DNA of 63,256 nucleotides, the filler included, from Basidiobolus ranarum (taxonomy: Eukaryota), in the NCBI GenBank assembly GCA_040143965.1. It is 44 parts of 44 records of this genome, joined end to end, with 100 filler letters (N's around TTAATTAATTAA, not from the genome) between each part and the next. Parts side by side here need not be neighbours in the genome. Positions count along the whole stretch, not along the records: positions 7,227 to 8,570 come from JASJQH010012340.1; 43 more parts are not named here. The stretch is one strand, 5' to 3'. This document shows positions 1,471 through 62,575 of this stretch, one piece after another. The first letter of the stretch is position 1. Every line of letters starts with the position of its first letter. A program made the translations under genes and the position numbers. Under the pieces are notes generated by a model that did not search any database, was not told the DNA's origin, and was given only the letters and a program-made list of their open reading frames with translations.

Positions 1471-1481
1471 AGTCTGATCAA
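1471..1481 (-). promoter_or_regulatory. Self-priming PBS (TTGATCAGACT) of gypsy LTR family E
   Basis: Lies 2 nt beyond the LTR end, lacks TGG, and is exactly complementary to AGTCTGATCAA inside the LTR (1640-1630). Confidence 0.75.
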
Positions 1482-1483
1482 AC

Positions 1484-2018
1484 TGTCATAATAAAGAATT
1501 GGACAAGGACTGGGAGCAATGACAAAAGGCAAGAAGGCAGGAGAGTACTTGGGTGTAGAACACAAGACAAGACAAAACAAGACCGGACAAGGAAGATACT
1601 CTGGCAAGAATCTTTATTGATAAGTGGCATTGATCAGACTGAGGTCTGATCAAGGAATATATGGGGCTTATATAGATATTGCAAGGTGAAACATAATATA
1701 CTTAATAGGGAATATACTGTGGCAAGTTCAAGAGTCATGGTGTTGGGGACTACTAGGACCAATACAAAGAGGGATGATGTAAGGATGATCAGGTGACCTT
1801 CCATGGAAGGTCTTGGCGGAAATACACTATGTGTGGGCTGACATGATTGGTTAGGTTTCATGTAATGTTCCAAAGAACAAGACTTCTATATAAGGGAATC
1901 TGGATGAACTGACACCAGATTGCCAAGAAGGGATGGCACAGAATATATGATGTCATCATCTAATAATAGAGGAGTTCTATTTGTAGTGGATCAGTATGCC
2001 AAGATCAGAATCATGACA
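1484..2018 (-). repeat. Complete 535-bp LTR, family E (chromovirus, Ty3/gypsy), 5' LTR
   Basis: TGTCATG...TATGACA termini, TATATAA at 1674-1668; other copies at 8169, 28354, 38541 and 58470. Confidence 0.9.
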
Positions 2019-8168: not shown

Positions 8169-8570
8169 TATCATGATTTTGATCTCGGCATACTGATCAA
8201 CTGCAAATAAAACTCTTATATTATTAGCTTATGACATCATATCTGCTGTGCCATCCTTTCTTGGCAATCTTGTGTTAGTTCATCCAGATTACCATACATG
8301 GAAGTCATGTTCTTGGGAACATTCCATGAAACCTAACCGGTCATGTCATCCCACACAGAATGTATTTTCCGCCAAGACCTTCCATGGATGGTCACCAGAT
8401 CATCCTTACATCATCCTTCTTTGTATTGGGCCTGGTAGTCCCCAACACCCTGACTCTTGAACTTGCCACAGTATATTCCCTATTCAGTATATTTTGTTTC
8501 ACCTTACAATAGCTATATAAGCCCCATGTATTCCTTGCTCATCCCTCAGTCGGATGAGCACCAGTTTTGA
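8169..8570 (+). repeat. LTR family E (variant subfamily), partial, inserted in CACTA ORF2
   Basis: Aligns with 2018-1620; hairpin TGCTCATCC/GGATGAGCA at 8536-8560. Confidence 0.85.
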
Positions 8571-8670: not shown

Positions 8671-9303
8671 TGAAGGATTATAAGTCATATGATTGACAAG
8701 TGTTTTCCACTTGTACCAGGTTTGTGGCAAGCAACAGTTGCCAATCAACTGTGGTAAAAGTGTAAGAAAACCAATAAACACTTGGTTGCTAAGATTGGAT
8801 TGAACTCTCCACTCCTCAATAATCAAAGCTGCTTCCTTTACTGTAAGTGTTATGAGTGGACTAATGTTTGCCAATAACAAAGAGTCCATAACAAAACCAT
8901 TGTCTTCTTCTTCAACTTCTGATATACTACCATTGGTACTGGAATAACCAAGGTCAACATCTAGCAGCAAGTCCTCAAAGTTGTCTGGACTTACTGGTTT
9001 GACCAAAGTTGCATTTTGACCTACATCATTCTGGTCATATAACTGTGGTAACTCCATGGTATCTTGACTTTTAGCAGTGTTACCAAAACTTTGAGGCAAA
9101 CTACAGTCAGTGGACTCAATAGGCAAAACTAAAGTCGATTTAGTGCACTTATTACTGTTGTTATACACCAGGCTTTGTGCAGCTGGTGGCTTTGTACAGT
9201 GACTATGCTTGTGATTATTTTTTCTATGAAGCCTTTGGCTTTCATAGCACAAGAATTTGCAACAATAATAGCAGGGCTTCTTTAAACATTTGTGTTGTGG
9301 CAT
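8671..9303 (-). mobile_element. CACTA/EnSpm transposase N-terminus
   Basis: MPQHKCLKKPCYYC...H...H; the 39359-40080 copy continues into CPNGCLAF and YIPLIPHL, typical of Tnp2 (Transposase_21). Confidence 0.8.
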
Positions 9304-9514
9304 GAGAAGGATAATGTAGAAAAAAGAACACCTCCCATGTAAGGGTCGCATTTTAGGTATAGCCCATTAATATCATCAGCTGATTGTGAGATGGTGTCAC
9401 AGATGAGTCATCAGGGGATTTGCAAGATATTTCCGGTAATGGATGGCAATTTTGGTTTATTATATGCTGTTTCTAAGCAATTTCATTACACCAGTTTACC
9501 ATCTGAAAATTTCA
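9304..9514. promoter_or_regulatory. Putative bidirectional promoter between CACTA transposase and ORF2
   Basis: Conserved spacer of about 210 bp between divergent ATGs; seen in at least five contigs. Confidence 0.55.
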
Positions 9515-15657: not shown

Positions 15658-15788
15658 TAGACTTGTTCCATTGGACCAGGTCAGATTGTGCCACTTAATC
15701 CAGCCTGCTAGTACACCATCTGGCACAATCTGTCAATTACCATGGCTGGGTCCTATAACACTTGATCAGACTCTATAAGGAACAATAT
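15658..15788 (+). mobile_element. Terminus of a putative hAT-like DNA element inserted in the CACTA spacer
   Basis: Starts TAGACTTGTTCC; subterminal inverted 12-mer CAGATTGTGCCA/TGGCACAATCTG; second copy at 27421-27611. Confidence 0.45.
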
Positions 15789-15888: not shown

Positions 15889-17230
15889 GTGACTCTAGTC
15901 TCCTCACAGGCCTTGATCATGGTATCCTCAAGTCCAGAGTAAACAAGTTCGTGCTCTTCAGCACCATGAATGACCTGTTGACGTTCGGTGATGGTGAGTT
16001 TGCGGCCAGCATTCTCTTCAACAAGAGAAAGGAGTTGGGCCTTGCCTTGCTCATCCCACTTCTTGTTCATACGACCGAAACGGATGTGGGAGATGTTCTT
16101 GAGCCACTCGAAGTATGACACGCACACACCACCAGCATTCAGCAACAAGTCAGGAACAACCACACGGCCACTCTTGACAAGGAAGTCGTGAGCGGCAGGA
16201 GTGATGGGTCCATTGGCTCCCTCACCGATCACCTTAGCCTTGATGCGGCTGACATTCTTGAGACCAACTTGACGTTCAAGAGCCGCAGGAATGAGAACAT
16301 CACAATCAGCCTCAATGAGTTTGATGGAGTCGGGAACAATGGTTCCAGAGCTGTAACCACCAAGAATACCCTTAGCAGACTTGTACTCTTGCAACTCATC
16401 GATGTTGATACCTTGCTCATTGTAAATACCACAGTCTTGATCGGCGACACCTACAATCTTGGCACCGTTGGCCTCGAAGAACTTGGCGGCCCAGTAACCA
16501 ACGTTTCCGAAACCTTGGATGACAACACGCTTACCATCAATGTCACCAGTGAGCCCAGTTTGCTTCTGAACCTCATCGTACTTCAAGAACTCACGAACAC
16601 CATAGTACACACCGAGGCCAGTGGCTTCAGTACGACCGCGGACACCTCCTTGATTGACTGGCTTGCCAGTGATGCAACCAGCAGAGTTAATGTCGGTGGG
16701 GTTGAACTGACGATAGGTGTCCATAATCCAGGACATCTCACGACCACCAGTACCAACATCAGGAGCGGGAACATCGATACCGGGACCGATGAAGTTCTTT
16801 TGGCAGAGTTCGAGGGCGAAGCGGCGAGTGATACGCTCCAACTCACGGGTACTGTACTTCTTGGGGTTGATGGAAACACCACCCTTGGCTCCACCGAATG
16901 GAACATCAACAACAGCACACTTGTAAGTCATCAGGGAAGCCAAAGCCTCAACCTCTTGCATGTCAACCTCATTGGCATAACGGATACCACCCTTGACTGG
17001 GAGACGATGGTGAGAGTGCTGAGCACGGTAACCACGGATGATCTCGGTTTGACCATTCTCAAGCTCGATAGGGAAGGTGACGCTGAGAACAGCATCGACT
17101 CTCTTGATGGCAGCAAGGGTCTCAGGTTTGACACCACTGACTGAAGCAGCCTTATCGAAGAACTGCTCTACACAACCAAGGAATGCAGGTTCACTTTCTT
17201 CGCAAGCAGCATTAGCGTGGGTGCTCATAC
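15889..17230 (-). CDS. gdh: NAD(P)-dependent glutamate dehydrogenase, GLUD/antenna type (partial, 3' truncated, no intron seen)
   Basis: KGGIRY, KCAVVDVPFGGAKGG, DVPAPD, GRTEATG, QGFGNVG, EGANGP, VSYFEWLKN; clean ORF with normal CpG. Confidence 0.96.
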
Positions 17231-17330: not shown

Positions 17331-18672
17331 AGTCAGCTTGCAGATGAAACAAAAACTACACAAGCATTTTATTCTCAAAATAGCCAACCAGAAAGGAGCA
17401 CTGTGAAATGTTACAAATGTGGAAAACTGGGACATATAGCATATTACTGCAGATCAAAGAAGAAATGGGTTTCAAAGAAAAAGGAAGCATATAACACCAC
17501 TAAAAGAGAATATAAACACTATGTACATATGGCAACCTCTAAATCAGGAAATGACTCTGCTGATGTATGGATTCTAGATTCTGGTGCAAGTGATCATATG
17601 TGTCACAATAGAAACATAATGCATGACTACAAGGAAATAGTACCTCTGGACATCATGGTAGCTGGAAGAAACAAACTGGTTGCATATGGAATGGGAAAGG
17701 TCACACTTGACTTACAAATAAGTAAAACCAAAAGTGTAATGGTAACCTTGGAAGATGTCTTATATATTCCATCATTTACAACAAATCTGTTTTCAATTGG
17801 AGCAATTGAAAAGAAACATTATGATGTCAAATTCAGCCAAGGAAAAGCAACCATATACAAATCAAAGGACTTGATAGTAGCAACTGGAACAAGAATTGGG
17901 AATCTATATCACCTGGATATTGCACCAATAACTGAGACTGTTTCTAACTTTGCAACAATTACTTCTGGAAACTTGATGACTTGGCATCAGTGCTTGGGTC
18001 ATCTAAACTATAATAGTGTGAAACTATTATATAAAAATAGCCTGTGTACTGGAATGGATCTTAAGCCCTCAGATATTACTAAATGTGAAAGCTGTATTCA
18101 AGGGAAAATCACCAGAAAACCATTTCCAAAAGAAGGAGCTAGCAAAGCCAAAGATTTATTGGATCTTATTCATACAGACTTATGTGGCCCAATGCAAACT
18201 CTGACACCAAGTAAGCAATGATATTTACTCATCTTTATTGATGATAAATCTCACTTCACAGTTTCATATCTTCTGTTGAGCAAAGGAGAAGTGTTTCAAT
18301 ATTTCAAGATATATGAAGCAATGGTCACAACCATAACAGGAAGAAAAATCAAATACCTATGCAGTGATAATGGAACTGAATTTAGCAATGAAGCCATGAC
18401 TAGCTTTTGTCAAGAAAAGGGAATTCAGCAGCAATTTGTTATTCCATATAGTGCAGAACAAAATGAAGTGACAGAATGGAGGAAAGCCACTGATGATGAA
18501 ATTCACTCCCTAATCAAGAATAACACATTGATCCATGTGGATTTACCTACTGGAAGAAAAACTATTGGTAATAGATGGGTGCTGAAACTGAAACTTAACT
18601 CAGATGGATCAATCAACCAATATAAAGCAAGATTAGTAGTAAAAGGCTATTCTCAGAAACATGGCATTGACT
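17331..18672 (+). mobile_element. Ty1/copia family D knuckle-PR-INT fused by deletion to RT start
   Basis: CYKCGKLGHIAYYC, WILDSGASDHM, LIHTDLCGPM, SDNGTEF, then YKARLVVKGYSQ. Confidence 0.95.
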
Positions 18673-21656: not shown

Positions 21657-22997
21657 CCCGATGGCAACATTGAATTTTTGGGTCGCAACGACTTTCAAAT
21701 AAAGATTCGCGGATTTCGAATTGAACCTGGGGACATTGAAACACTTCTCATGAAGCATCCCCAGGTGCGAGAATCCGTTGTACTTACGCTGGACAAGGAT
21801 AGTGATCAGCGTTTAATCGCATACGTAACAGCCGAATTGGATGAAAAGCTTTCTAGCAAGTTACGAGCCCACCTCGAAAATAAACTGCCTGGATATATGA
21901 TTCCATCCGCATTTGTACGCTTGGAAGCGTTTCCAATGACATCTAACGGAAAACTAGACCGCCGAGCATTACCAAAGCCAGATGAGGGTGACTTTGTCCA
22001 TCAGACCTACGAAGCACCGAAAGGTAAAATTGAGGAAGAACTTTGTAAAATCTGGGCTGAAACTCTCAATCTGGACGTTGTCGGACGCAGCGATAATTTC
22101 TTTGCGCTTGGTGGATACTCTCTGCTCGCCGTTAGGATGATCAGCCGTATTCGAACCACATTGGGCATCGAAATTGCTCTAAATACGCTATTTGAAGCCC
22201 CTACTATTGCAGAATTGGCGCAACATTTACTTAAAGAAGATACGGATGACCAACAAAATTCTTTTTCAGTAATACTTCCTTTAAATCCTAAAGGCACTCA
22301 AGCTCCTCTTTTCTGTATTCACGCCGTTTCCGGTTTAAGTTGGGGCTACATTGGCTTATGTAAACATTTAGGCCCTGATCAACCGATATATGGTCTACAG
22401 GCTCGTGGACTCAACAATGAGACACCAGTGGCAGAAACAATGGATGATATGATATCCGATTATATTCAACAAATACGTAACGTCCAGTCTACTGGACCAT
22501 ATCATCTACTTGGATGGTCTTTGGGCGTTTATATTGCTCACAGCATTGCGACACGCCTCGAAGAACAAGGGGAAAAGGTAGCGTTACTTGCTCTTTTAGA
22601 TATTAATCCGGAATATTCACCACCCAGCTACGGAACGGAGGCGGAGAGAGATAGTTGGTACATAAGATTTCTGGATCGCTATTGCGACGAAGGTGATCCA
22701 AATGCTGGCGAGTATTTATGGGAAAAGACGCATAACGTCATAAAAAATAATCACAAGATATTAAAGGGGTTTACACCGCCCGTTTATAGCGGGGACGTGA
22801 TTTTCTTTCGGGCAACCATAGTAGAGCAACGCTCTATCCCGCTAGTGTCTCCTCAGTTGTGGAAACCTTACGTTCTTGGCAATATCGAGGTTTTCGACAT
22901 TAACTGCACACATCGAGACATGGACAGGCCTTTACCAATTGCGGAAATCGGTGGTATTTTGGCAAACAAATTCCAAGATTTACAAAATAAGGCATAG
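21657..22997 (+). CDS. Non-ribosomal peptide synthetase C-terminus: A-subdomain, thiolation domain, thioesterase (5' truncated)
   Basis: GRNDFQIKIRGFRIE, SNGKLDR, T motif NFFALGGYSLLA, TE PLFCIH / GLQARG / GWSLG / CTH; intact and intronless. Confidence 0.96.
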   Translation, partial: PDGNIEFLGRNDFQIKIRGFRIEPGDIETLLMKHPQVRESVVLTLDKDSDQRLIAYVTAELDEKLSSKLRAHLENKLPGYMIPSAFVRLEAFPMTSNGKLDRRALPKPDEGDFVHQTYEAPKGKIEEELCKIWAETLNLDVVGRSDNFFALGGYSLLAVRMISRIRTTLGIEIALNTLFEAPTIAELAQHLLKEDTDDQQNSFSVILPLNPKGTQAPLFCIHAVSGLSWGYIGLCKHLGPDQPIYGLQARGLNNETPVAETMDDMISDYIQQIRNVQSTGPYHLLGWSLGVYIAHSIATRLEEQGEKVALLALLDINPEYSPPSYGTEAERDSWYIRFLDRYCDEGDPNAGEYLWEKTHNVIKNNHKILKGFTPPVYSGDVIFFRATIVEQRSIPLVSPQLWKPYVLGNIEVFDINCTHRDMDRPLPIAEIGGILANKFQDLQNKA

Positions 22998-27420: not shown

Positions 27421-27611
27421 TACGGGCTGGCATGATATCTCCAATAAAATCATAGTGTCTGATTGTGGTGGGATAGTGCCATATTGTTCCTTATAGTGTC
27501 CAATTGAGTGTTATAGGACCCAGCCATGGTAATTGACAGATTGCACCAGATGGTGTACTAGCAGGCTGGATTGAGTGGCATGATCTGACCTGGTCCAATG
27601 GAACAAGTCTA
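27421..27611 (-). mobile_element. Second copy of the hAT-like terminus in the CACTA spacer
   Basis: Reverse complement aligns to 15658-15788. Confidence 0.45.
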
Positions 27612-28353
27612 ATAATAAACCTAATATGCCATCCATTACTGGAAATAACCTGTATATCCCCAGATGACTTATCTGTGACACTAGCTCAGAATCAGCTGAT
27701 GATATTGAAGGAATACACCAAAAATACCATCCTTATGTAGGAGGTGTTTGTTTCTCCACAATACCCTTCTCATGCCACAACAAAAATGTTTAAAGAAGTG
27801 CTGCTATTATTGTCACAAATTCTTGTGCTATGAAAGCTGGAGACTTCATAGAAAAATAATCACAAGCATTGTCACTGTATAAAGCTATTAGCTGCACAAA
27901 GCCTGGCCAACAGTAATAAGTGCACAAAATTGACTTTAGTTTTGCACACTGAGTCCACTCTATGTGCTTTGCCTCAACATTTTTGTAACACTGCCAAAAG
28001 TCAAGATACCAAGGAGTTACTGCAGTTATATGACCAGAATGATGTAGGTAGAAATGCAACTTTGGTCCAACCAGTAAGTCCTGACAACTTTGAGGACATG
28101 ATGTTAGATACCAACCTTGTTTATTCCAGTAGTGATGGTAGTAAATCAGAAGTTGAAGAAGAAGACAATGGTTTTGTTATGGACTGTTTGTTATGGGCAA
28201 GCATTAGTCCAATCATAACACTTACAGTGAAGGAAGCAGCTTTGATAATTGAAGAGTTGAGAGTTCAATCCAATCTTAGCAACCTGGTGATTATTGGTTC
28301 TTCTTACACTTTTACCACAGTTGGTTGGCAACTGTTACTTGCCACAGTCCTGG
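27612..28353 (+). mobile_element. CACTA spacer plus transposase N-terminus, degenerate
   Basis: KEAALIIEELRVQSNLSN; aligns to the reverse of 8720-9460. Confidence 0.85.
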
Positions 28354-28761
28354 TGTCATGATTCTGATCTTGCAATACTGATCCACTGCAAATAGAACTC
28401 TTCCATTACTAGATTGTGACATCATATCTGCTGTGCCACTCCTTCTTGGCAATCTAATGTCAATTCACCCTGATTACCTTATATGGAAGTCATGTTCTTT
28501 GGAACATTCCATGAAACCTAACCAATCATGTCATCCCATACATAGTGTATTTCTGCCAAGAACTTCCATGGAAGGTCACCGGATCATCCTGACATCATCC
28601 TTACATCATTCCTCTTTGTTTTGGTCCTTGTAGTCCCTAACACCCCAACTCTTGAACTTGCCACAGTATATTCGCTATTCAGTATATTATGTTTCACCTT
28701 GCAATATCTATATAAGCCTCATGTATTCCTTGATCAGACCTCAGTCTGATCAATGCCAGTT
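28354..28761 (+). repeat. LTR family E, partial
   Basis: TGTCATGATTCTGATC start; hairpin TTGATCAGAC-CTCA-GTCTGATCAA at 28730-28753. Confidence 0.88.
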
Positions 28762-38937: not shown

Positions 38938-40086
38938 TTTTTCCTTTTGTGCCAGCAGGTTTGGCTTGGAAGCCAATTTTGACTTTGATTTTGAATGCTT
39001 TTTGAATGGCATTGAGATTTTCAGATGGTAAACTTGGTGTAATGAAATTGCTTAGAAACAGCTGATAATAAACCAAAATTGCCATCCAATACTGGAGATA
39101 TCTTGTAAATCCCCTGATAAATCATCTGTGATGCCATCTCAGAATCAGCTGATGATATTGATGAGCTATATCTAAAATACCACCTTTACATGGGAGGTGC
39201 TCTTTTTCTACAATATCATTCTCATGCTACAACACAAACATACATAGAATCCCTGCTATTATTGTTGCAAATTCTTCTGCTATGAAAACCAGAGGCTTCA
39301 TAGAAAAAATAATCACAAGCATGGTCACTGTACAAAGCCACCAGCTGCACAAAGCCTGGTGTGTAACAACAGTAATAAGTACACTAAATCAACTTTACTT
39401 TTGCCCATTGAGTCCACTGACTGTGGTTTTTTTCAAAGTTTTGGTAACACTGCCAAAAGTCAAGATACCATGGAGTTACCACAGTTGTATGACCAGAATG
39501 ATGTAGGTCAAAATGCAACTTTGGTTGAACCAGTAAGTCCAGACAGCTTTCAGGACTTGCTGCTAGATGTTGACCTTGGTTATTCCAGTACTGATGGTAG
39601 TATATCAAAAGATGAAGAAGAAGGCAATGGCTTTGTTATGGACTCTTTGTTATTGGCAAGCATTAGGCCATTAATAACACTTACTGTGAAGGAAGCAGCT
39701 TTGATTATTGAGGAGTGGAAAGTTCAATCCAATCTTAGCAACCAGGTGTTTACTGGTTTTCTTACACTTTTACAACAGTTGATAGGCAATTGTTGCTTGC
39801 CACAGACCTGGTACAAGTGGAAAGCACTTGTCAATTGTATGACTTATAATACTTCAGTAATTAAACTATCTTCATGTCCAAATGGTTGTTTGGCTTTCAC
39901 CAGTGATCAGAAAAATCTGAAGTAATGTACTGTTTGCACACAATTGGCAATCACCAAATCAGGTAAATCTCATTCATATTTGGCTTACATACCATTGATT
40001 CCCCATCTTAAAGTTTTGATGAAATCACCCAAATATAGATCATTGATCTAATACCAAAGTACTCACCATAAAGCTGATGGTGTTAC
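38938..40086 (+). mobile_element. CACTA spacer plus transposase N-terminal half
   Basis: LPQTWYKWK, SSCPNGCLAF, CTVC, AYIPLIPHL. Confidence 0.9.
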
Positions 40087-44689: not shown

Positions 44690-46027
44690 TTTGATTTGAG
44701 AAAGAATACACAAGTATATCTTGTTTTGTCATCAATAAAGGTCATAAAGTACCTTTTCCCACCCCGTGAGACGTTTTTCATGGGCCCACATAAGTCAGAA
44801 TGAATCAGGGAAAAAGTTTGAGTGGATTCAATCTCTCCAGAACTTGAAAACACCTGTCTGTGATGTTTTCTATATATGCAACCTACATACAGATGCAATT
44901 TGGTGATATTTCCAATTTCCAAGCCTGAAACAAGCTGATTTCAGATCATTTGGGTCAGTGTTTGTTTCCCAATGTGGCCCAATATTCTATGCCATGTTTG
45001 ACAACTTATTTCACCAGTTTTGGCCAAGTTTGCATTCTCAGAACACCATTGGTTGATTTCTAGCTTGTATAACTTTTGAGTTTTGATCCCAGTAACTACT
45101 TTGGTATCATTCTGATCTGTGATAGTGCATCCAGCCTTACTGAACACAAAATTCAATCATTGAGTTGTTGCTTGGCTTACTGAGAGCAGATTTGTGGCTA
45201 TATTTGGTACATATAGTACATCATCTAATTTTGCAGATGGTGCAGCTGAAATTTGGTCCAAATTGAGTACAACTGTGCCCTTACTAACTGCATCTAGTGC
45301 AAAGTCATCACCTAAGTAGACTTTCCTTGTTTAGATTGGTTTTAAGCTGGAAAACCAATCTTTCCTGTTAGACATATGCTGGGAAGCTCCTGGATCAATG
45401 TACCACATTTCCAAGCCTTCTTAGGTGGTTACTGATAGGGCAGACATGAATAGATGATCTCCATCAGTGTTTACTTGATTTGCTTGTTCCAGTTTTAGCT
45501 TTTTGGCAAAATTCCTTTTTCTGCAATCTTTGATTAAATGGTCTGGTTTTTTGCAATACTTGCAGATGATTAAATTCCTAATAGGAGCACCATTATTGAA
45601 GCCTGTTGGATGTTTTACAGCTCCAAAAAATGCCTGTTCAGCATTATTTTACTGAGAATTATATCTCCTTAATGCTTCATTCAAAAGCCTAGCACCATCA
45701 TATTCCATTGTTAATGGCTCTGAACATGACTCTAGGACAATTATGAGGTTCCCAAACTTGTCTGGCAGGCTCCCAAGTAGTGTCATGACTAAGTCATCTT
45801 CATTTAGAGGTGCTCCAATGGATGAGAGCTGATCTGCCATAGTTTTTATCCAATTTATATGATTAAGCATAGAATCATCAGGATTCATCTGAATTGAGAA
45901 CAATTTTCACCTAAGATATAGCCTATTAGCCAGACTTTTAGTCTCATATAGTCCCTCAAGTGTTTCCCAAGCATTTTGGATGTTTTTGGCTGATTGCATG
46001 TGCCTTAATTGAGAATCTCTGCGATGT
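44690..46027 (-). mobile_element. Ty1/copia gag-PR-INT start, degenerate
   Basis: LVMTLLGSLP, WYIDPGASQH, WHRILGH, LIHSDLCGPM. Confidence 0.95.
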
Positions 46028-46333: not shown

Positions 46334-47324
46334 AATTGTTGCAAAGCTAGAAACAGTCTTAGTTATTGGTGCAATATCCAGCTGATATAGATTCCCAATT
46401 CTTGTTCCAGTTGCTACTATCAAGTCCTTTGATTTGTATATGGTTGCTTTTCCTTGGCCAAATTTGACATCATAATGTTTCTTTTCAATTTTTCCAATTG
46501 AAAACAGATTTGTTGTAAATGATGGAATATACATGACATCTTCCAAGGTTACTAATACACTTTTGGTTTTACTTATTTGTAAGTCAAGTGTGACCTTTCC
46601 CATTCTATATGCAACCAGTTTGTTTCTTCCAGCTACCATGATGTGCAGAGGTTTTATTTCCTTATAGGCATGCATTATGTTTCAATTGTGACACATAAGA
46701 TCACTTGCACCAGAATTTAGAATCCATACATCTGCAGAGTCATTTCCTGATTTAGAGGTTGTCATAAGTACATAGTGTTCATTTCTTCTTGTAGTGGTGA
46801 TATATGCTTCCTTTGTCTTTGAAACACATTTCTTCTTTGATCTGCAATGACATGCTATATGTCCCAGTTTTCCGTATTTGTAACATTTCACAGTGCTCCT
46901 GCTGGTTGGCTATTTTGAGAATAAATGCTTGTGTAGTCTTTGTTTCATCTGCAAGCTGACTTTTGTCTTTCCTTTTCAAATCTTCTTGACTTAGATGAGT
47001 GATCAGATAATGCTGAGTAAGCTTATCCCCAATTGCTTCCAAAGTGAGTACAAGGGCTGAATATGATTCAGGAAGACCATTGATTATGGTAAGAATTATA
47101 TCCATTTCAGGTACTTCATAATTCACTGATTCCAGCTGTTGGGCAAGTTTCTTGATACCATTTACATATGTCATAATATCTGAATCCTCAGACATACAAG
47201 AGTTTAAGAGTTTCTTTGCAGCATCATCAAGCAAGCAAGCCCTTTTTGCTCATGATGTTCCACTAGGATTTCCCATGCATTCTAGGCAGAGTTAGAATCT
47301 CAAACTAGCATAAGTTGTTGTTGT
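46334..47324 (-). mobile_element. Ty1/copia family D gag-PR, degenerate
   Basis: TIINGLPESY, knuckle, VWILNSGASDL; homologous to 17331-17960 and 5600-5681. Confidence 0.93.
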
Positions 47325-51875: not shown

Positions 51876-52859
51876 TATTTTTACCAACTTAGAAGTTCTT
51901 GGATATATAGATTCTTCAAGCTTGTGCTAGAAGCCCCAAGCTCTGCACACATATTCCTGGGACCTTCCTAACACAGTCTACATATTAGTTTGTTTACATC
52001 TTGACAGAGCTATAAATGTTAACTTTCTACTCAATAAATCTATAAGTGCAAGCCCCCAATTCCTCTAATTCTCCAAACCACTTCCAATAGGCTCCCAGAT
52101 ACTTTAACAGGTTGTGAACCCCAAGCTTCCACTATCTGTAATTTCTACTTCTCAAATTTATGGAACATTCCCCTCTTCTGAAAAATTAGATGGAACAAAT
52201 TTTCAAGTTTGGAAAATTAAAAAGAAAATGCTGCTATAAGAAAAAGGACTATGGGACACTGTTGTAGGAGAAGAAATCAATGCAAAACAATCTGAAAGCA
52301 AAATTTAGTCCAAGTTAAAAAAGAATAAGGTGCCTTTAACACAATTTGTCTTAATGTTAAAGACAAATAGCTAATTCAATGTACAAAAGCTAAAACTGCC
52401 AAGAAGGTATGGAAAGCCTTAGAAGACACCTACCAAACAAGTTCTGCTGCAAACTAGATGTTTCTAAGAAGACAATTCTTTAACTTAAAGATGAAGCAAG
52501 GAGAATACATTAAATCACCAATTAATAGAATCACTATTTGAGTGGATGAAACAGAATGGATAACAGTACCTACTACTGATCAAGATATCATAGTTACAGC
52601 CCTGAATAGCCTGCAACACAAGTTGCAGAGCATAGTACTGGCTCTAGAATCAAGAACTGAAAGTTTGACCCTAAAGTATGTATTTGGCAGCCTCTTGGAT
52701 GAAGATTTATGAAAGCAGTATCCAACCAAAAGAATGAAGAAAATGCTTTAATAGGCTATGGGAAAGCTTCCCGTAAAGGTCAAAAGAACTTTAAGAAGAA
52801 AAGTAACACATTCTGTGATTACTATAAGAGAACTGGCATTTAAGCAAAGATTGCTTTAA
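51876..52859 (+). mobile_element. Copia family A 5' end: LTR to 52109, decayed half-tRNA PBS 52110-52121, degenerate gag
   Basis: ...TTTAACA GGTTGTGAACCC; EKLDGTNFQVWKIK. Confidence 0.9.
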
Positions 52860-59053: not shown

Positions 59054-59542
59054 CTTTCATACTCGAAGTATCTCAAAGCCTTGGAACCTTTCTACGAAAA
59101 AGCTGATCCTGAGTTTGTTAACCTAAGAACCAAATGTAAGGAGATTCTTCAATTGGAAGAAGATTTATCAGAAATTGTTCAATTGGTCGGTAAATCTGCT
59201 CTTGCTGAAACTGATAAAATCACTTTGGAAGTGGCTAGAATTATCAAGGATGATTTCTTGCAACAAAATGGTTACTCCTCCTATGATCGTTACTGCCCCT
59301 TCTATAAGACCGTTTGGTTGCTACGTAACATGATTGGTTTCTACAGCCATGCTACACACGCTGTTGAGGTCACCAATAACCAAATTACCTGGGCTAAGAT
59401 TCGTGACAACATGTCAGATGTTCTTTACAAGCTTAGCTCCATGAAGTTCGAAGACCCTGCTGATGGTGAGGAAGTATTGGTCGAACGCTTTGCAAAATTG
59501 AACAAGGAAATCGAAGAACGTTTCAGACAGCTTATTGACTAA
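59054..59542 (+). CDS. VMA1: V-type ATPase catalytic subunit A, C-terminus
   Basis: [48 protein letters not shown]. Confidence 0.97.
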
Positions 59543-61922: not shown

Positions 61923-62575
61923 TCCATACCTTTTTGGCAGTTTTAGCTCTTGAACATTGAATTAGCAATTTGTCTTTAACATTAAGACAAATTGTGTTAA
62001 AGGCACTGTGTTCTTTTTTAATCTGGAGTGAAACTTTGGTTTCAGATAGTTTTGCATTGTTTTCTTCTTGTACAACAGTGTCCCAAAGTCCTTTTTCTTG
62101 CAGCACCATTTTCATTTTAATTTTCCAAACTTCATAATTGGTTCCATCCAATTTTTCGGACAAAGGAAAAGTTCCATAAATTTGAGAAGTAGACATTACA
62201 GAGAGTGCAAGCTTGGGGCTCATAACCTGTTAATGTATTTGGGAGCCTGTTGGAAGTGGTTTGGAGAATTAGAGAAATTGGTGGTTTTCACTTATTGATT
62301 TATTAAGAAGAAAGCTGACATTTATAGTTTTGTCAAGATGTAACCTAACTAACATGTTGAATGTGTTAAGGAAGATCCCAGGAACATGTGTGCAAAGTTT
62401 GGGGCTTCTAGCCCAAGTTAGAAAAATCTATATATCTGAGAACTTCTAAGTTGGTAAAAATATTCTAAGTAAATTCCAATTGAGACTAATTGATAATATC
62501 TTAGTGAGTTATAAGAGGACTAATTACTAAGTTATATATGACTATATAGATGCTTAGGCAATGCTAATTTCAACA
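61923..62575 (-). mobile_element. Copia family A 5' end: LTR 62575-62228, PBS 62227-62216, gag
   Basis: TGTTGAAATTAGC...TTAACA GGTTATGAGCCC; EKLDGTNYEVWKIKMKMVL. Confidence 0.93.

What the first reader, a model, noticed from the sequence alone, without database searches (positions are those of the whole stretch)
8536..8560. Co-varying U3/R hairpin that could hide the 3' copy of the self-primer
Seen: two LTR E copies (1630-1653, 28730-28753) have a perfect 10-bp stem, TTGATCAGAC-CTCA-GTCTGATCAA, over the putative self-primer. A third copy has a different sequence at the same place but still a perfect 9-bp stem, TGCTCATCC-CTCAGTC-GGATGAGCA, which needs several concerted changes. Inference: the left arm is in U3, so it is transcribed only at the RNA 3' end. 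There it would sequester the second primer copy and leave the 5' copy free to pair with the PBS. Subfamilies would then carry their own primer/PBS/decoy codes. I do not know of this being described.
Basis: partly seen in the sequence, partly recalled or inferred. Interest (0 to 1): 0.75.

Follow-up and report, generated by a model that had tools for sequence, protein, structure and literature searches.

The report
Hairpin masking a retrotransposon self-primer copy
A fungal jumping gene that starts copying itself with the first bases of its own RNA carries, just before its start of transcription, a short inverted repeat that would fold over the second copy of that primer at the RNA's far end; the repeat is real and recurs in some unrelated elements, but its role is not shown.

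Summary
All 3 copies of "LTR E" that reach this point carry a perfect hairpin at the same site: 10 bp in two copies and 9 bp, with a different sequence, at 8536-8560. The loop holds an initiator-like TCAGTC, 34 nt after a TATA box. In the one copy that extends further, the 11 nt from that A are exactly complementary to the 11 nt lying 2 nt after the LTR end. This is the Tf1-type self-priming layout. The left arm lies in U3, so it would form the hairpin only at the RNA 3' end.

The window is 44 contigs of about 1.34 kb joined by linkers. The variant copy ends 10 nt after its hairpin, so the predicted variant PBS cannot be checked.

As an outside test I fetched 31 Ty3/gypsy contigs. Of these, 13 show a self-primer/PBS pair. 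Three (L003, L015, L025) have a strong hairpin between the primer and upstream sequence, three have a weak one and seven have none. One of the seven has intact genes. The feature is therefore recurrent but optional.

Folding models fit a role as a decoy for the 3' primer copy, and they fit rival roles equally well. I found no description of it in print. It is a new variant of a known kind, of moderate interest, and its function is inferred.

The parts
1484..2018 (-). LTR E, the only copy with R, U5 and the downstream border (535 bp; TGTCAT...ATGACA termini)
   Evidence: The 5' border is shared by three copies whose upstream DNA differs. The 3' border is set by the terminal inverted repeat and is seen in one copy only.
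1667..1674 (-). TATA box TATATAAG, 34 nt upstream of the predicted start
1644..1653 (-). Left arm TTGATCAGAC in U3, identical to the first 10 nt of the PBS
1640..1643 (-). Loop CTCA. The A at 1640 is the predicted transcription start within the initiator-like TCAGTC.
   Evidence: Read. The start is inferred, and the initiator consensus is recalled.
1630..1640 (-). Putative self-primer AGTCTGATCAA (RNA nt 1-11). Positions 2-11 form the right arm of the hairpin.
1613..1618 (-). AATAAA poly(A) signal at RNA +23 to +28. A CA follows at 1602-1603 and a GT-rich stretch at 1556-1582, so R is about 39 nt.
   Evidence: Read; inferred
1483..1525 (-). Predicted 7-bp stem (1519-1525 with 1483-1489) next to the PBS. 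It is placed like the U5-IR stem or one lobe of the Tf1 'pretzel'.
   Evidence: helix list of the fold. Single sequence, no covariation test.
1471..1481 (-). Primer-binding site TTGATCAGACT, 2 nt after the LTR end. There is no TGG tRNA-type start.
8169..8570 (+). LTR E copy with the variant hairpin, cut by the contig end at 8570. TATA at 8514-8521, predicted start A at 8548.
8536..8560 (+). Variant hairpin: left arm 8536-8544 TGCTCATCC, loop 8545-8551 CTCAGTC, right arm 8552-8560 GGATGAGCA
28354..28761 (+). LTR E copy cut by the contig end at 28761. TATA at 28709-28716, predicted start A at 28743.
28730..28753 (+). Hairpin identical to the one at 1630-1653

Best explanation
LTR E is the long terminal repeat of a self-priming LTR retrotransposon in an early-diverging fungus. 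Transcription is predicted to start at the A of TCAGTC, 34 nt after the TATA box. The first 11 nt of the RNA fold back onto the PBS 2 nt after the LTR, and that end would prime minus-strand DNA, as in Tf1.

R is repeated, so the same 11 nt occur again near the RNA 3' end. There they are preceded by U3, whose last 10 nt before the loop mimic the PBS. At the 3' end the two form a local hairpin of 9-10 bp. This hairpin ties up both the spare primer copy and the PBS look-alike, so only the 5' copy meets the true PBS.

What is shown: the sequences, their positions, the preserved pairing in a second sequence version, and recurrence in some unrelated elements. What is inferred: the transcription start, the RNA ends, the masking role, and any co-variation of the PBS.
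For: - Anatomy. TATA, TCAGTC, AATAAA, a GT-rich stretch, TG..CA termini and an 11/11 primer-PBS match bounded at both ends.
- 5' RNA model. Nt 1-11 pair with the PBS in both the MFE and the centroid structure.
- 3' RNA model. The hairpin forms in both the MFE and the centroid structure.
- Energies. The hairpin is -13.4 kcal/mol (c2, c20) and -14.2 (variant). The primer:PBS duplex is -14.8.
- Two-strand model. With the natural left arm, the PBS pairs with the 5' primer at P=0.96 and with the 3' copy at P=4e-6. In 17 of 20 random shuffles of the left arm, the 3' copy wins (mean P 0.82). A one-strand model with a spacer gave the same result in 10 of 10 shuffles.
- Substitutions. The 8 substitutions of the variant all fall in a 26-nt stretch and restore a perfect stem.
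- Independent test. Among 13 self-priming comparators, L003 (8+6 bp, -17.0), L015 (9 bp, -13.4) and L025 (7 bp) have the primer as the right arm of a hairpin with upstream sequence. Stems of 9 or more occur in 2 of 12 comparators, against 26 of 4138 control windows.
- The comparator primers start 32-35 nt after a TATA box in 5 of 13. This is the same geometry as here.
Against: - Seven of 13 comparators have no such hairpin (L002, L005, L007, L013, L016, L017, L020). L002 has intact gag and pol. Within one related group the hairpin ranges from strong (L015) to absent (L020). Self-priming therefore does not need it.
- There are only 3 copies and 2 sequence types in the window.
- The PBS of the variant is unseen.
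- The 5' copy is about 150 nt from the PBS and the 3' copy is kilobases away. The real advantage of masking may be small, and the folding models ignore this distance, proteins and kinetics.
- The same models support a DNA-level role equally well.
- The comparator set was picked by my own criteria. A 9-nt match after a CA is expected by chance about once per locus (my estimate), so some comparators may be false. The grouping into 9 families is by eye.
Confidence: 0.35

Rival explanations
1. There is no selected function. The palindrome is kept perfect by copying between its own arms, through intrastrand template switching during reverse transcription or replication (quasi-palindrome correction). 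The variant would then be one or two such events, not stepwise compensatory evolution.
For: The variant's changes are clustered and concerted, and its stem register shifts by 3 nt, as a snap-back event could produce. The variant left arm resembles a U3 motif about 125 nt upstream (14 of 17 with one gap; 28 of 1000 shuffles reach the score). The common type does not (314 and 367 of 1000). This suggests a templated source. The hairpin is absent from most comparators. The proneness of reverse transcriptases to template switching is established knowledge (recalled).
Against: Both arms differ from the common type, so one switch between the arms cannot explain the variant. A hairpin must already exist for correction to act on it. 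The excess of primer-overlapping hairpins in unrelated elements needs a reason for arising at this site.
Confidence: 0.2
2. The hairpin acts in DNA intermediates. In plus-strand strong-stop DNA it would keep the R start from pairing with the 3' PBS copy, leaving that end free for the second strand transfer and preventing snap-back synthesis.
For: A DNA-parameter fold of U3-R-U5-PBS gives the hairpin at P=0.97 and PBS:R-start pairing at P=0.002.
Against: In the standard scheme (recalled), strong-stop plus DNA stays paired to the minus strand except for the PBS tail, so the R start is not free. There is no direct evidence. The objection that most comparators lack the hairpin applies here too.
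Confidence: 0.12
3. It is a switch set by the choice of transcription start. RNAs that start upstream of the left arm carry the whole hairpin at their 5' end, cannot self-prime and would serve as messengers. RNAs that start in the loop self-prime and serve as genomes.
For: Use of alternative starts decides whether Tf2 RNA carries its self-primer (PMC5341516, passages read). The loop holds the predicted start.
Against: The single TATA at -34 argues for one main start.
Confidence: 0.12
4. It is a 3'-end processing or stability element. A hairpin 12 nt before AATAAA that forms only when U3 is present could mark the 3' poly(A) site for use, or protect the RNA end. The same signal at +23 of the 5' end would stay silent.
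For: The poly(A) signal lies in R, so it occurs at both ends, and the hairpin is specific to the 3' end. Retroviruses use structures that depend on U3 or U5 to tell the two ends apart (recalled).
Against: This does not explain why one arm is exactly the self-primer, or why the comparator hairpins also centre on the primer. A site 39 nt from the cap is likely to be too close to be used anyway (recalled).
Confidence: 0.08
5. It is a palindromic protein-binding site or a cruciform at the promoter, with no link to priming.
For: The palindrome is centred on the predicted start.
Against: The variant keeps the pairing but not the sequence, which a sequence-specific factor would not tolerate. The right arm equals the PBS complement.
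Confidence: 0.04

Closest known systems
Tf1/Tf2 of Schizosaccharomyces pombe and the Tf1/sushi group of chromoviruses (self-primed reverse transcription, 'pretzel' 5' structure)
   Same: There is no tRNA-type PBS. The first 11 nt of the predicted RNA are complementary to a PBS just after the 5' LTR, as stated for Tf1 (PMC7175516, passage read). A stem is predicted next to the PBS. The host is a fungus. The window's gypsy RNase H fragment is 51-53% identical to two chromodomain-bearing, self-priming comparators.
   Different: The papers I could read describe duplexes within the 5' untranslated region only (PMC10085805, passages read). None mentions a U3 arm that pairs with the primer copy at the 3' end. 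The internal genes of LTR E are not in the window, so its clade is unknown.
Plant Ty1/copia TAR lineage and Tcn1 chromoviruses, predicted self-primers (Neumann et al. 2019, PMC6317226)
   Same: Self-priming is predicted from complementarity between the LTR and the PBS. It was predicted for 12% of the plant elements surveyed (passages read).
   Different: Those are plant elements. The passages say nothing of a hairpin. The per-element tables and sequences (Additional files 1 and 3) were too large to read.
Retroviral R-region hairpins (TAR and poly(A) hairpins of HIV-1) and end-specific structures
   Same: These are local hairpins at or near the U3/R/U5 borders whose formation differs between the two RNA ends (recalled, not tested here).
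   Different: Those lie within R or R/U5 and serve transcription, polyadenylation or strand transfer in tRNA-primed viruses. Here one arm is the primer itself and the other is in U3.
Quasi-palindrome correction / short template-switch mutation
   Same: Clustered, concerted changes that keep or create a perfect inverted repeat (recalled concept; pattern seen).
   Different: This is a mutational process, not a functional element. It can explain how the arms stay matched, but not why the site is the primer.

Membership tests
Self-priming LTR retrotransposon (Tf1-type mechanism) | No PBS complementary to a tRNA 3' end | tested here: met
   The sequence after the LTR end reads GT TTGATCAGACT ACTCAT, with no TGG start. 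It was not compared with a tRNA set of the host.
Self-priming LTR retrotransposon (Tf1-type mechanism) | The PBS just after the 5' LTR is complementary to the first ~11 nt of the element's own RNA | tested here: inconclusive
   There is an 11/11 match that starts at the A of TCAGTC, 34 nt after the TATA box, and stops at both ends. The RNA 5' end is predicted, not mapped. Matches of 10-11 nt at this range are common in the window (77), so only the positions make this one telling.
Self-priming LTR retrotransposon (Tf1-type mechanism) | RNase H cut between nt 11 and 12 that frees the primer | not testable with these tools
   Needs biochemistry.
Self-priming LTR retrotransposon (Tf1-type mechanism) | Three-duplex 'pretzel' in the 5' untranslated region | tested here: inconclusive
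   The central duplex and one adjacent 7-bp stem are predicted. A second flanking duplex is not in the MFE structure. With one sequence, no covariation test is possible.
Tf1/sushi clade of chromoviruses (Ty3/gypsy with chromodomain) | Pol phylogeny and a chromodomain at the integrase C-terminus | not testable with these tools
   Only 25 nt of internal sequence follow the PBS before the contig ends. No other contig continues it.
LTR (long terminal repeat) | Two direct copies flanking an internal region, TG..CA ends, a target-site duplication | tested here: inconclusive
   TG..CA ends with a 6-nt inverted repeat are present, and the 5' border is shared by three copies in different flanks. The contigs are about 1.34 kb, so no pair of LTRs and no duplication can be seen.

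The most novel reading that the evidence does not exclude
Some self-priming retrotransposons carry a three-part priming code: a PBS mimic in U3, the primer at the start of R, and the PBS. The code would evolve in concert. Copying between the arms of the U3/R hairpin and copying of the primer into the PBS during plus-strand synthesis would let a lineage change its priming specificity in a few steps. The 3' hairpin would keep the spare primer copy silent. Subfamilies would then become isolated in replication from one another.
Probability: 0.15. Interest if true: 0.7.

Novelty: new variant of a known kind. Interest (0 to 1): 0.5.

Why it matters
Self-primed reverse transcription has an inherent oddity. 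The primer lies in R, so every genomic RNA carries it twice. How the spare copy is kept out of the way has not, in the literature I could search, been addressed. A hairpin that can form only at the 3' end would be a simple answer. It would also add a cis element to the Tf1-type mechanism, and it is directly testable in the fission-yeast Tf1 system. If the arms, primer and PBS change together, this would also show how such elements diversify their priming specificity. If instead the hairpin is a mutational by-product, it is a neat example of palindrome maintenance by template switching and little more.

Tried and rejected
- Own genome, sequencing runs and earlier findings were not available. 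I could not collect more LTR E copies or any transcript data.
- Exact-pattern scans with a 25-mer conserved in all three copies gave 0 hits in viral contigs and 0 in metagenome contigs.
- The 20-mer core of the hairpin hit one metagenome contig (L001). It is GC-rich bacterial DNA with a chance palindrome and is unrelated.
- The predicted variant PBS (12-mer, up to 2 mismatches) matched only the hairpin itself and one unrelated place inside a glutamate dehydrogenase gene.
- The sequences just after the PBS and at the U5 end occur nowhere else in the window.
- A scan for the three-part layout (palindrome plus a third copy downstream) found only LTR E and two AT-rich chance 8-mers.
- The 11-mer TTGATCAGACT at 15762-15772 looked like a second PBS. 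It is not kept in the homologous copy and has no complement upstream, so I rejected it as probable chance.
- An assembly fold-back artefact is rejected. The palindrome does not extend to the contig ends, and it lies inside contig 2.
- A single-protein search of viral contigs with the window's RNase H fragment found nothing. A pol alignment added no new loci.
- My PPT/terminal-repeat heuristic confirmed L002, L003 and L015 and gave only noise for eight other loci.
- Papers by Levin, Lin and Levin, Atwood-Moore, and Wicker and Keller were not held. Whether they mention such a hairpin is therefore unknown to me.

Full report
**What the window is.** The 63,256 bases are not one stretch of a chromosome. 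They are 44 contigs of 1,334-1,346 bp, in descending order of length, joined by linkers of 44 N, TTAATTAATTAA and 44 N. Most contigs are fragments of nested repeats, namely copia and gypsy pieces. A few carry ordinary genes. A V-ATPase A fragment (59054-59539) is 96% identical to that of Basidiobolus ranarum and 89% identical to that of Massospora. The source is therefore most likely a Basidiobolus-like, early-diverging fungus. No whole genome, sequencing runs or earlier notes were available.

**The observation.** Two are identical: TTGATCAGAC-CTCA-GTCTGATCAA, at 28730-28753 on the + strand and at 1653-1630 on the minus strand. The third, at 8536-8560, is TGCTCATCC-CTCAGTC-GGATGAGCA.
- A scan for perfect stems of 9 bp or more with loops of 3-8 nt gave 13 rows, which are 10 distinct hairpins. 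Three of them are these. Fifty shuffles gave a mean of 2.2 rows.
- In the alignment of the three copies, the variant differs from the c2 copy at 8 of 26 hairpin columns, against 38 of 365 in the rest of U3 (p=0.006). The two common copies differ at 0 of 26, against 37 of 365.
- All eight changes leave a perfect stem. The covariation is not in register, however. The left arm keeps its columns, the right arm moves 3 nt downstream, and the conserved CTCAGTC becomes loop.
- Only these three copies reach the hairpin. Two further partial copies stop before it.

**Anatomy of the one complete copy (contig 2, minus strand).**
- The LTR runs from 2018 to 1484 and has TGTCAT...ATGACA ends.
- TATATAAG lies at 1674-1667.
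- The left arm (1653-1644) follows 13 nt later.
- The loop CTCA holds an A at 1640. This A sits in TCAGTC, an initiator-like word (consensus recalled), 34 nt after the TATA box.
- AATAAA lies at +23. A CA at +38/39 and a GT-rich run follow, so R would be about 39 nt.
- Two nucleotides after the LTR end comes TTGATCAGACT (1481-1471). This is the exact complement of the 11 nt that begin at the A, and the match stops at both ends.
- Complementary 10-11-mers at this range are common in the window (77). The positions are what make this match meaningful, not its length.
- The same figure, 11 nt, is given for Tf1 (PMC7175516, passage read).
- The 5' RNA model pairs nt 1-11 with the PBS in both the MFE and the centroid structure, and adds a 7-bp stem next to the PBS.
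- I conclude, with about 85% confidence, that this is a self-priming LTR element. Whether it is a Tf1/sushi chromovirus cannot be told, because only 25 nt of internal sequence are present.

**Where the hairpin sits.** With the start at the loop A, the left arm is in U3 and is absent from the RNA 5' end. At the 3' end, U3 precedes R and the hairpin forms in both the MFE and the centroid structure. Its energy is -13.4 kcal/mol for the common type and -14.2 for the variant. This is close to the -14.8 of the primer:PBS duplex.

**Folding models of the decoy idea.**
- In a two-strand model of the 5' leader and the 3' end, the PBS pairs with the 5' primer at P=0.96 and with the 3' copy at P=4e-6.
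- After random shuffling of the left arm, the 3' copy wins in 17 of 20 trials (mean P 0.82).
- In a one-strand model with a spacer, it wins in 10 of 10 trials.
- This shows that the idea is thermodynamically coherent. It ignores distance, proteins and kinetics.
- A DNA fold of plus-strand strong-stop DNA gives an equally clean picture for a DNA-level role (hairpin P=0.97).

**The untestable prediction.** The variant contig ends 10 nt after the hairpin. The predicted PBS occurs nowhere else in the window apart from the hairpin itself and a chance near-match in a dehydrogenase gene. This test needs the full genome.

**An outside test.** Using the window's gypsy RNase H fragment, a profile of its relatives and an integrase profile, I fetched 32 Ty3/gypsy contigs from the viral collection and analysed 31 of them (L002-L032). 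Most are 5-7 kb with an exact terminal overlap, that is, one collapsed LTR plus the internal region.
- *Selection.* I looked for a perfect complement of 9 nt or more whose downstream arm follows a CA within 5 nt in the non-coding junction. I kept 13 loci: 12 of the first 20 and 1 of the next 11.
- *Backing for the 13.* L002, L003 and L015 are confirmed by a polypurine tract and terminal repeats. L008 is confirmed by a true LTR pair. L007, L014, L017, L018 and L025 have a TATA[AT]A 32-35 nt before the primer. L015 and L020 have TATAAG at -33/-34. L005 and L013 share the same pair. L016 rests on its 11-nt match alone.
- *Left out.* Six loci (L027-L032) use a repeated palindrome, which is a different design. 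Twelve loci had no convincing pair.
- *Identity of two comparators.* L002 and L003 have intact gag and pol with a chromodomain and a Tf2-type SH3 domain.
- *Strong hairpins.* The primer is the right arm of a hairpin with upstream sequence in L003 (8 bp plus 6 outer bp, -17.0), L015 (9 bp with one G-U, loop of 4, -13.4) and L025 (7 bp, loop of 3).
- *Weak or none.* Weaker pairings occur in L014, L008 and L018. L002, L005, L007, L013, L016, L017 and L020 have none.
- *Controls.* Stems of 9 or more occur in 2 of the 12 comparators scored, against 26 of 4,138 slid control windows (0.63%). By the joint measure, 4 of 13 fall in the 5% tail.
- *Significance.* Grouped by eye into about 9 families, 3 have a strong hairpin where about 0.45 would be expected. 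By my arithmetic this is roughly p=0.01.
- *Reading.* The layout recurs in unrelated elements and is more frequent than chance. It is absent from most, including one apparently intact element, and it decays within one related group (L015 > L018 > L020).
- *Codes.* The same set shows compensatory primer/PBS changes between relatives (L014 vs L017, L015 vs L020). This fits the notion of lineage-specific codes and follows from the copying of the primer into the PBS during plus-strand synthesis (established scheme, recalled).

**How the variant may have arisen.** One switch between the arms cannot explain it, since both arms differ from the common type. The variant left arm resembles a U3 motif about 125 nt upstream (14 of 17 with one gap; 28 of 1000 shuffles reach the score). 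The common type does not. This is a post-hoc and weak lead. It suggests a route of conversion of the left arm by the upstream motif, then correction of the right arm against it, then transfer to the PBS through the primer.

**Literature.** Six full-text searches and passages of six papers gave the following.
- The Tf1 mechanism and the 'pretzel' of the 5' leader.
- Predicted self-priming in plant TAR and Tcn1 elements.
- Control of Tf2 by choice of transcription start.
- No mention of a U3 arm pairing with the primer copy.
- The primary Tf1 papers, and Wicker and Keller 2007, were not held. The large supplements of PMC6317226 could not be read. The claim 'not described' is therefore limited to what was searchable.

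**Verdict.** The self-priming reading is well supported by position. The hairpin is a recurrent, optional companion of self-primers. Its proposed role as a mask for the 3' primer copy is the best single explanation, but I hold it at about 0.35. The rivals are a mutational by-product (0.2), a DNA-level role (0.12), a start-site switch (0.12), 3'-end processing (0.08) and a promoter palindrome (0.04). Interest is moderate, 0.5. This is a new variant of a known kind, and it is directly testable in the Tf1 system.

Noticed in passing
window 1-63256: The window is a chain of 44 contigs of 1,334-1,346 bp in descending length, joined by N44-TTAATTAATTAA-N44 linkers. Neighbouring contigs are therefore not neighbours in the genome.
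   Followed up: yes
window 59054-59539 (+): A V-ATPase subunit A fragment is 96% identical to that of Basidiobolus ranarum and 88-89% identical to Massospora and Neoconidiobolus. The source is probably a Basidiobolus-like fungus.
   Followed up: partly
window 15889-17230 (-) and 21657-22997 (+): These contigs carry uninterrupted open frames for a glutamate dehydrogenase (446 aa) and for an NRPS-like tail (AMP-binding C-terminus, carrier domain, thioesterase). I did not decide whether they are fungal genes, acquired genes or contamination.
   Followed up: no
window 15762-15772 (+): The exact 11-mer of the LTR E PBS (TTGATCAGACT) occurs 1 nt after ...TATAACA in another repeat. The homologous copy at about 27498-27510 (minus strand) differs at 5 of 12 positions there, in an otherwise 89% identical stretch. 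No complement lies upstream. This is probably chance, but the local cluster of changes is odd.
   Followed up: partly
window 8403-8419 versus 8533-8549: The variant left arm region (TCCTTGCTCATCCCTC) resembles the U3 motif TCCTTACATCATCCTTC about 125 nt upstream (14 of 17; 28 of 1000 shuffles reach the score). This is a possible template for the variant.
   Followed up: partly
L027-L032 (for example L030 junction 1478-1491 and 1632-1645; L029 961-976 and 1027-1042): A group of gypsy contigs carries a self-complementary 14-16-mer (TCTCGCCTAGGCGAGA and variants), repeated several times in the LTR and again right after ...GACTGACA at the LTR end. A palindromic primer would be its own PBS, which would be a different solution to self-priming.
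   Followed up: partly
L014 vs L017; L015 vs L018 vs L020: Related elements show matched changes in primer and PBS: ACGCTTTACCAA/TTGGTAAAGCGT against ACACTTTACCAA/TTGGTAAAGTGT, and ATCGAGTTCTT/AAGAACTCGAT against ATTGAGTTCT/AGAACTCAAT.
   Followed up: partly
L014 and L017, 4-19 nt upstream of the primer: A conserved small hairpin (GATAC..GTATC, and GATACA-TTCA-TGTATC) lies between the TATA box and the primer without covering the primer.
   Followed up: no
window 45333-45361, 61966-61994, 52344-52368, 17790-17812, 46482-46504: These are other perfect hairpins of 9-11 bp in the window. Some lie in homologous repeat copies (61966/52344; 17790/46482).
   Followed up: no
L001 801-820: The 20-nt core of the LTR E hairpin occurs by chance in a GC-rich bacterial metagenome contig, as part of a longer stem (GGCCGATCAGAC..GTCTGATCGGCC) after an open reading frame. 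It looks like a terminator.
   Followed up: no
window 27852-28358 (+), 8671-9366 (-), 39248-39922 (+): A repeat family that flanks the LTR E copy of contig 20 carries homologous open frames of 169-232 aa with no Pfam match.
   Followed up: no
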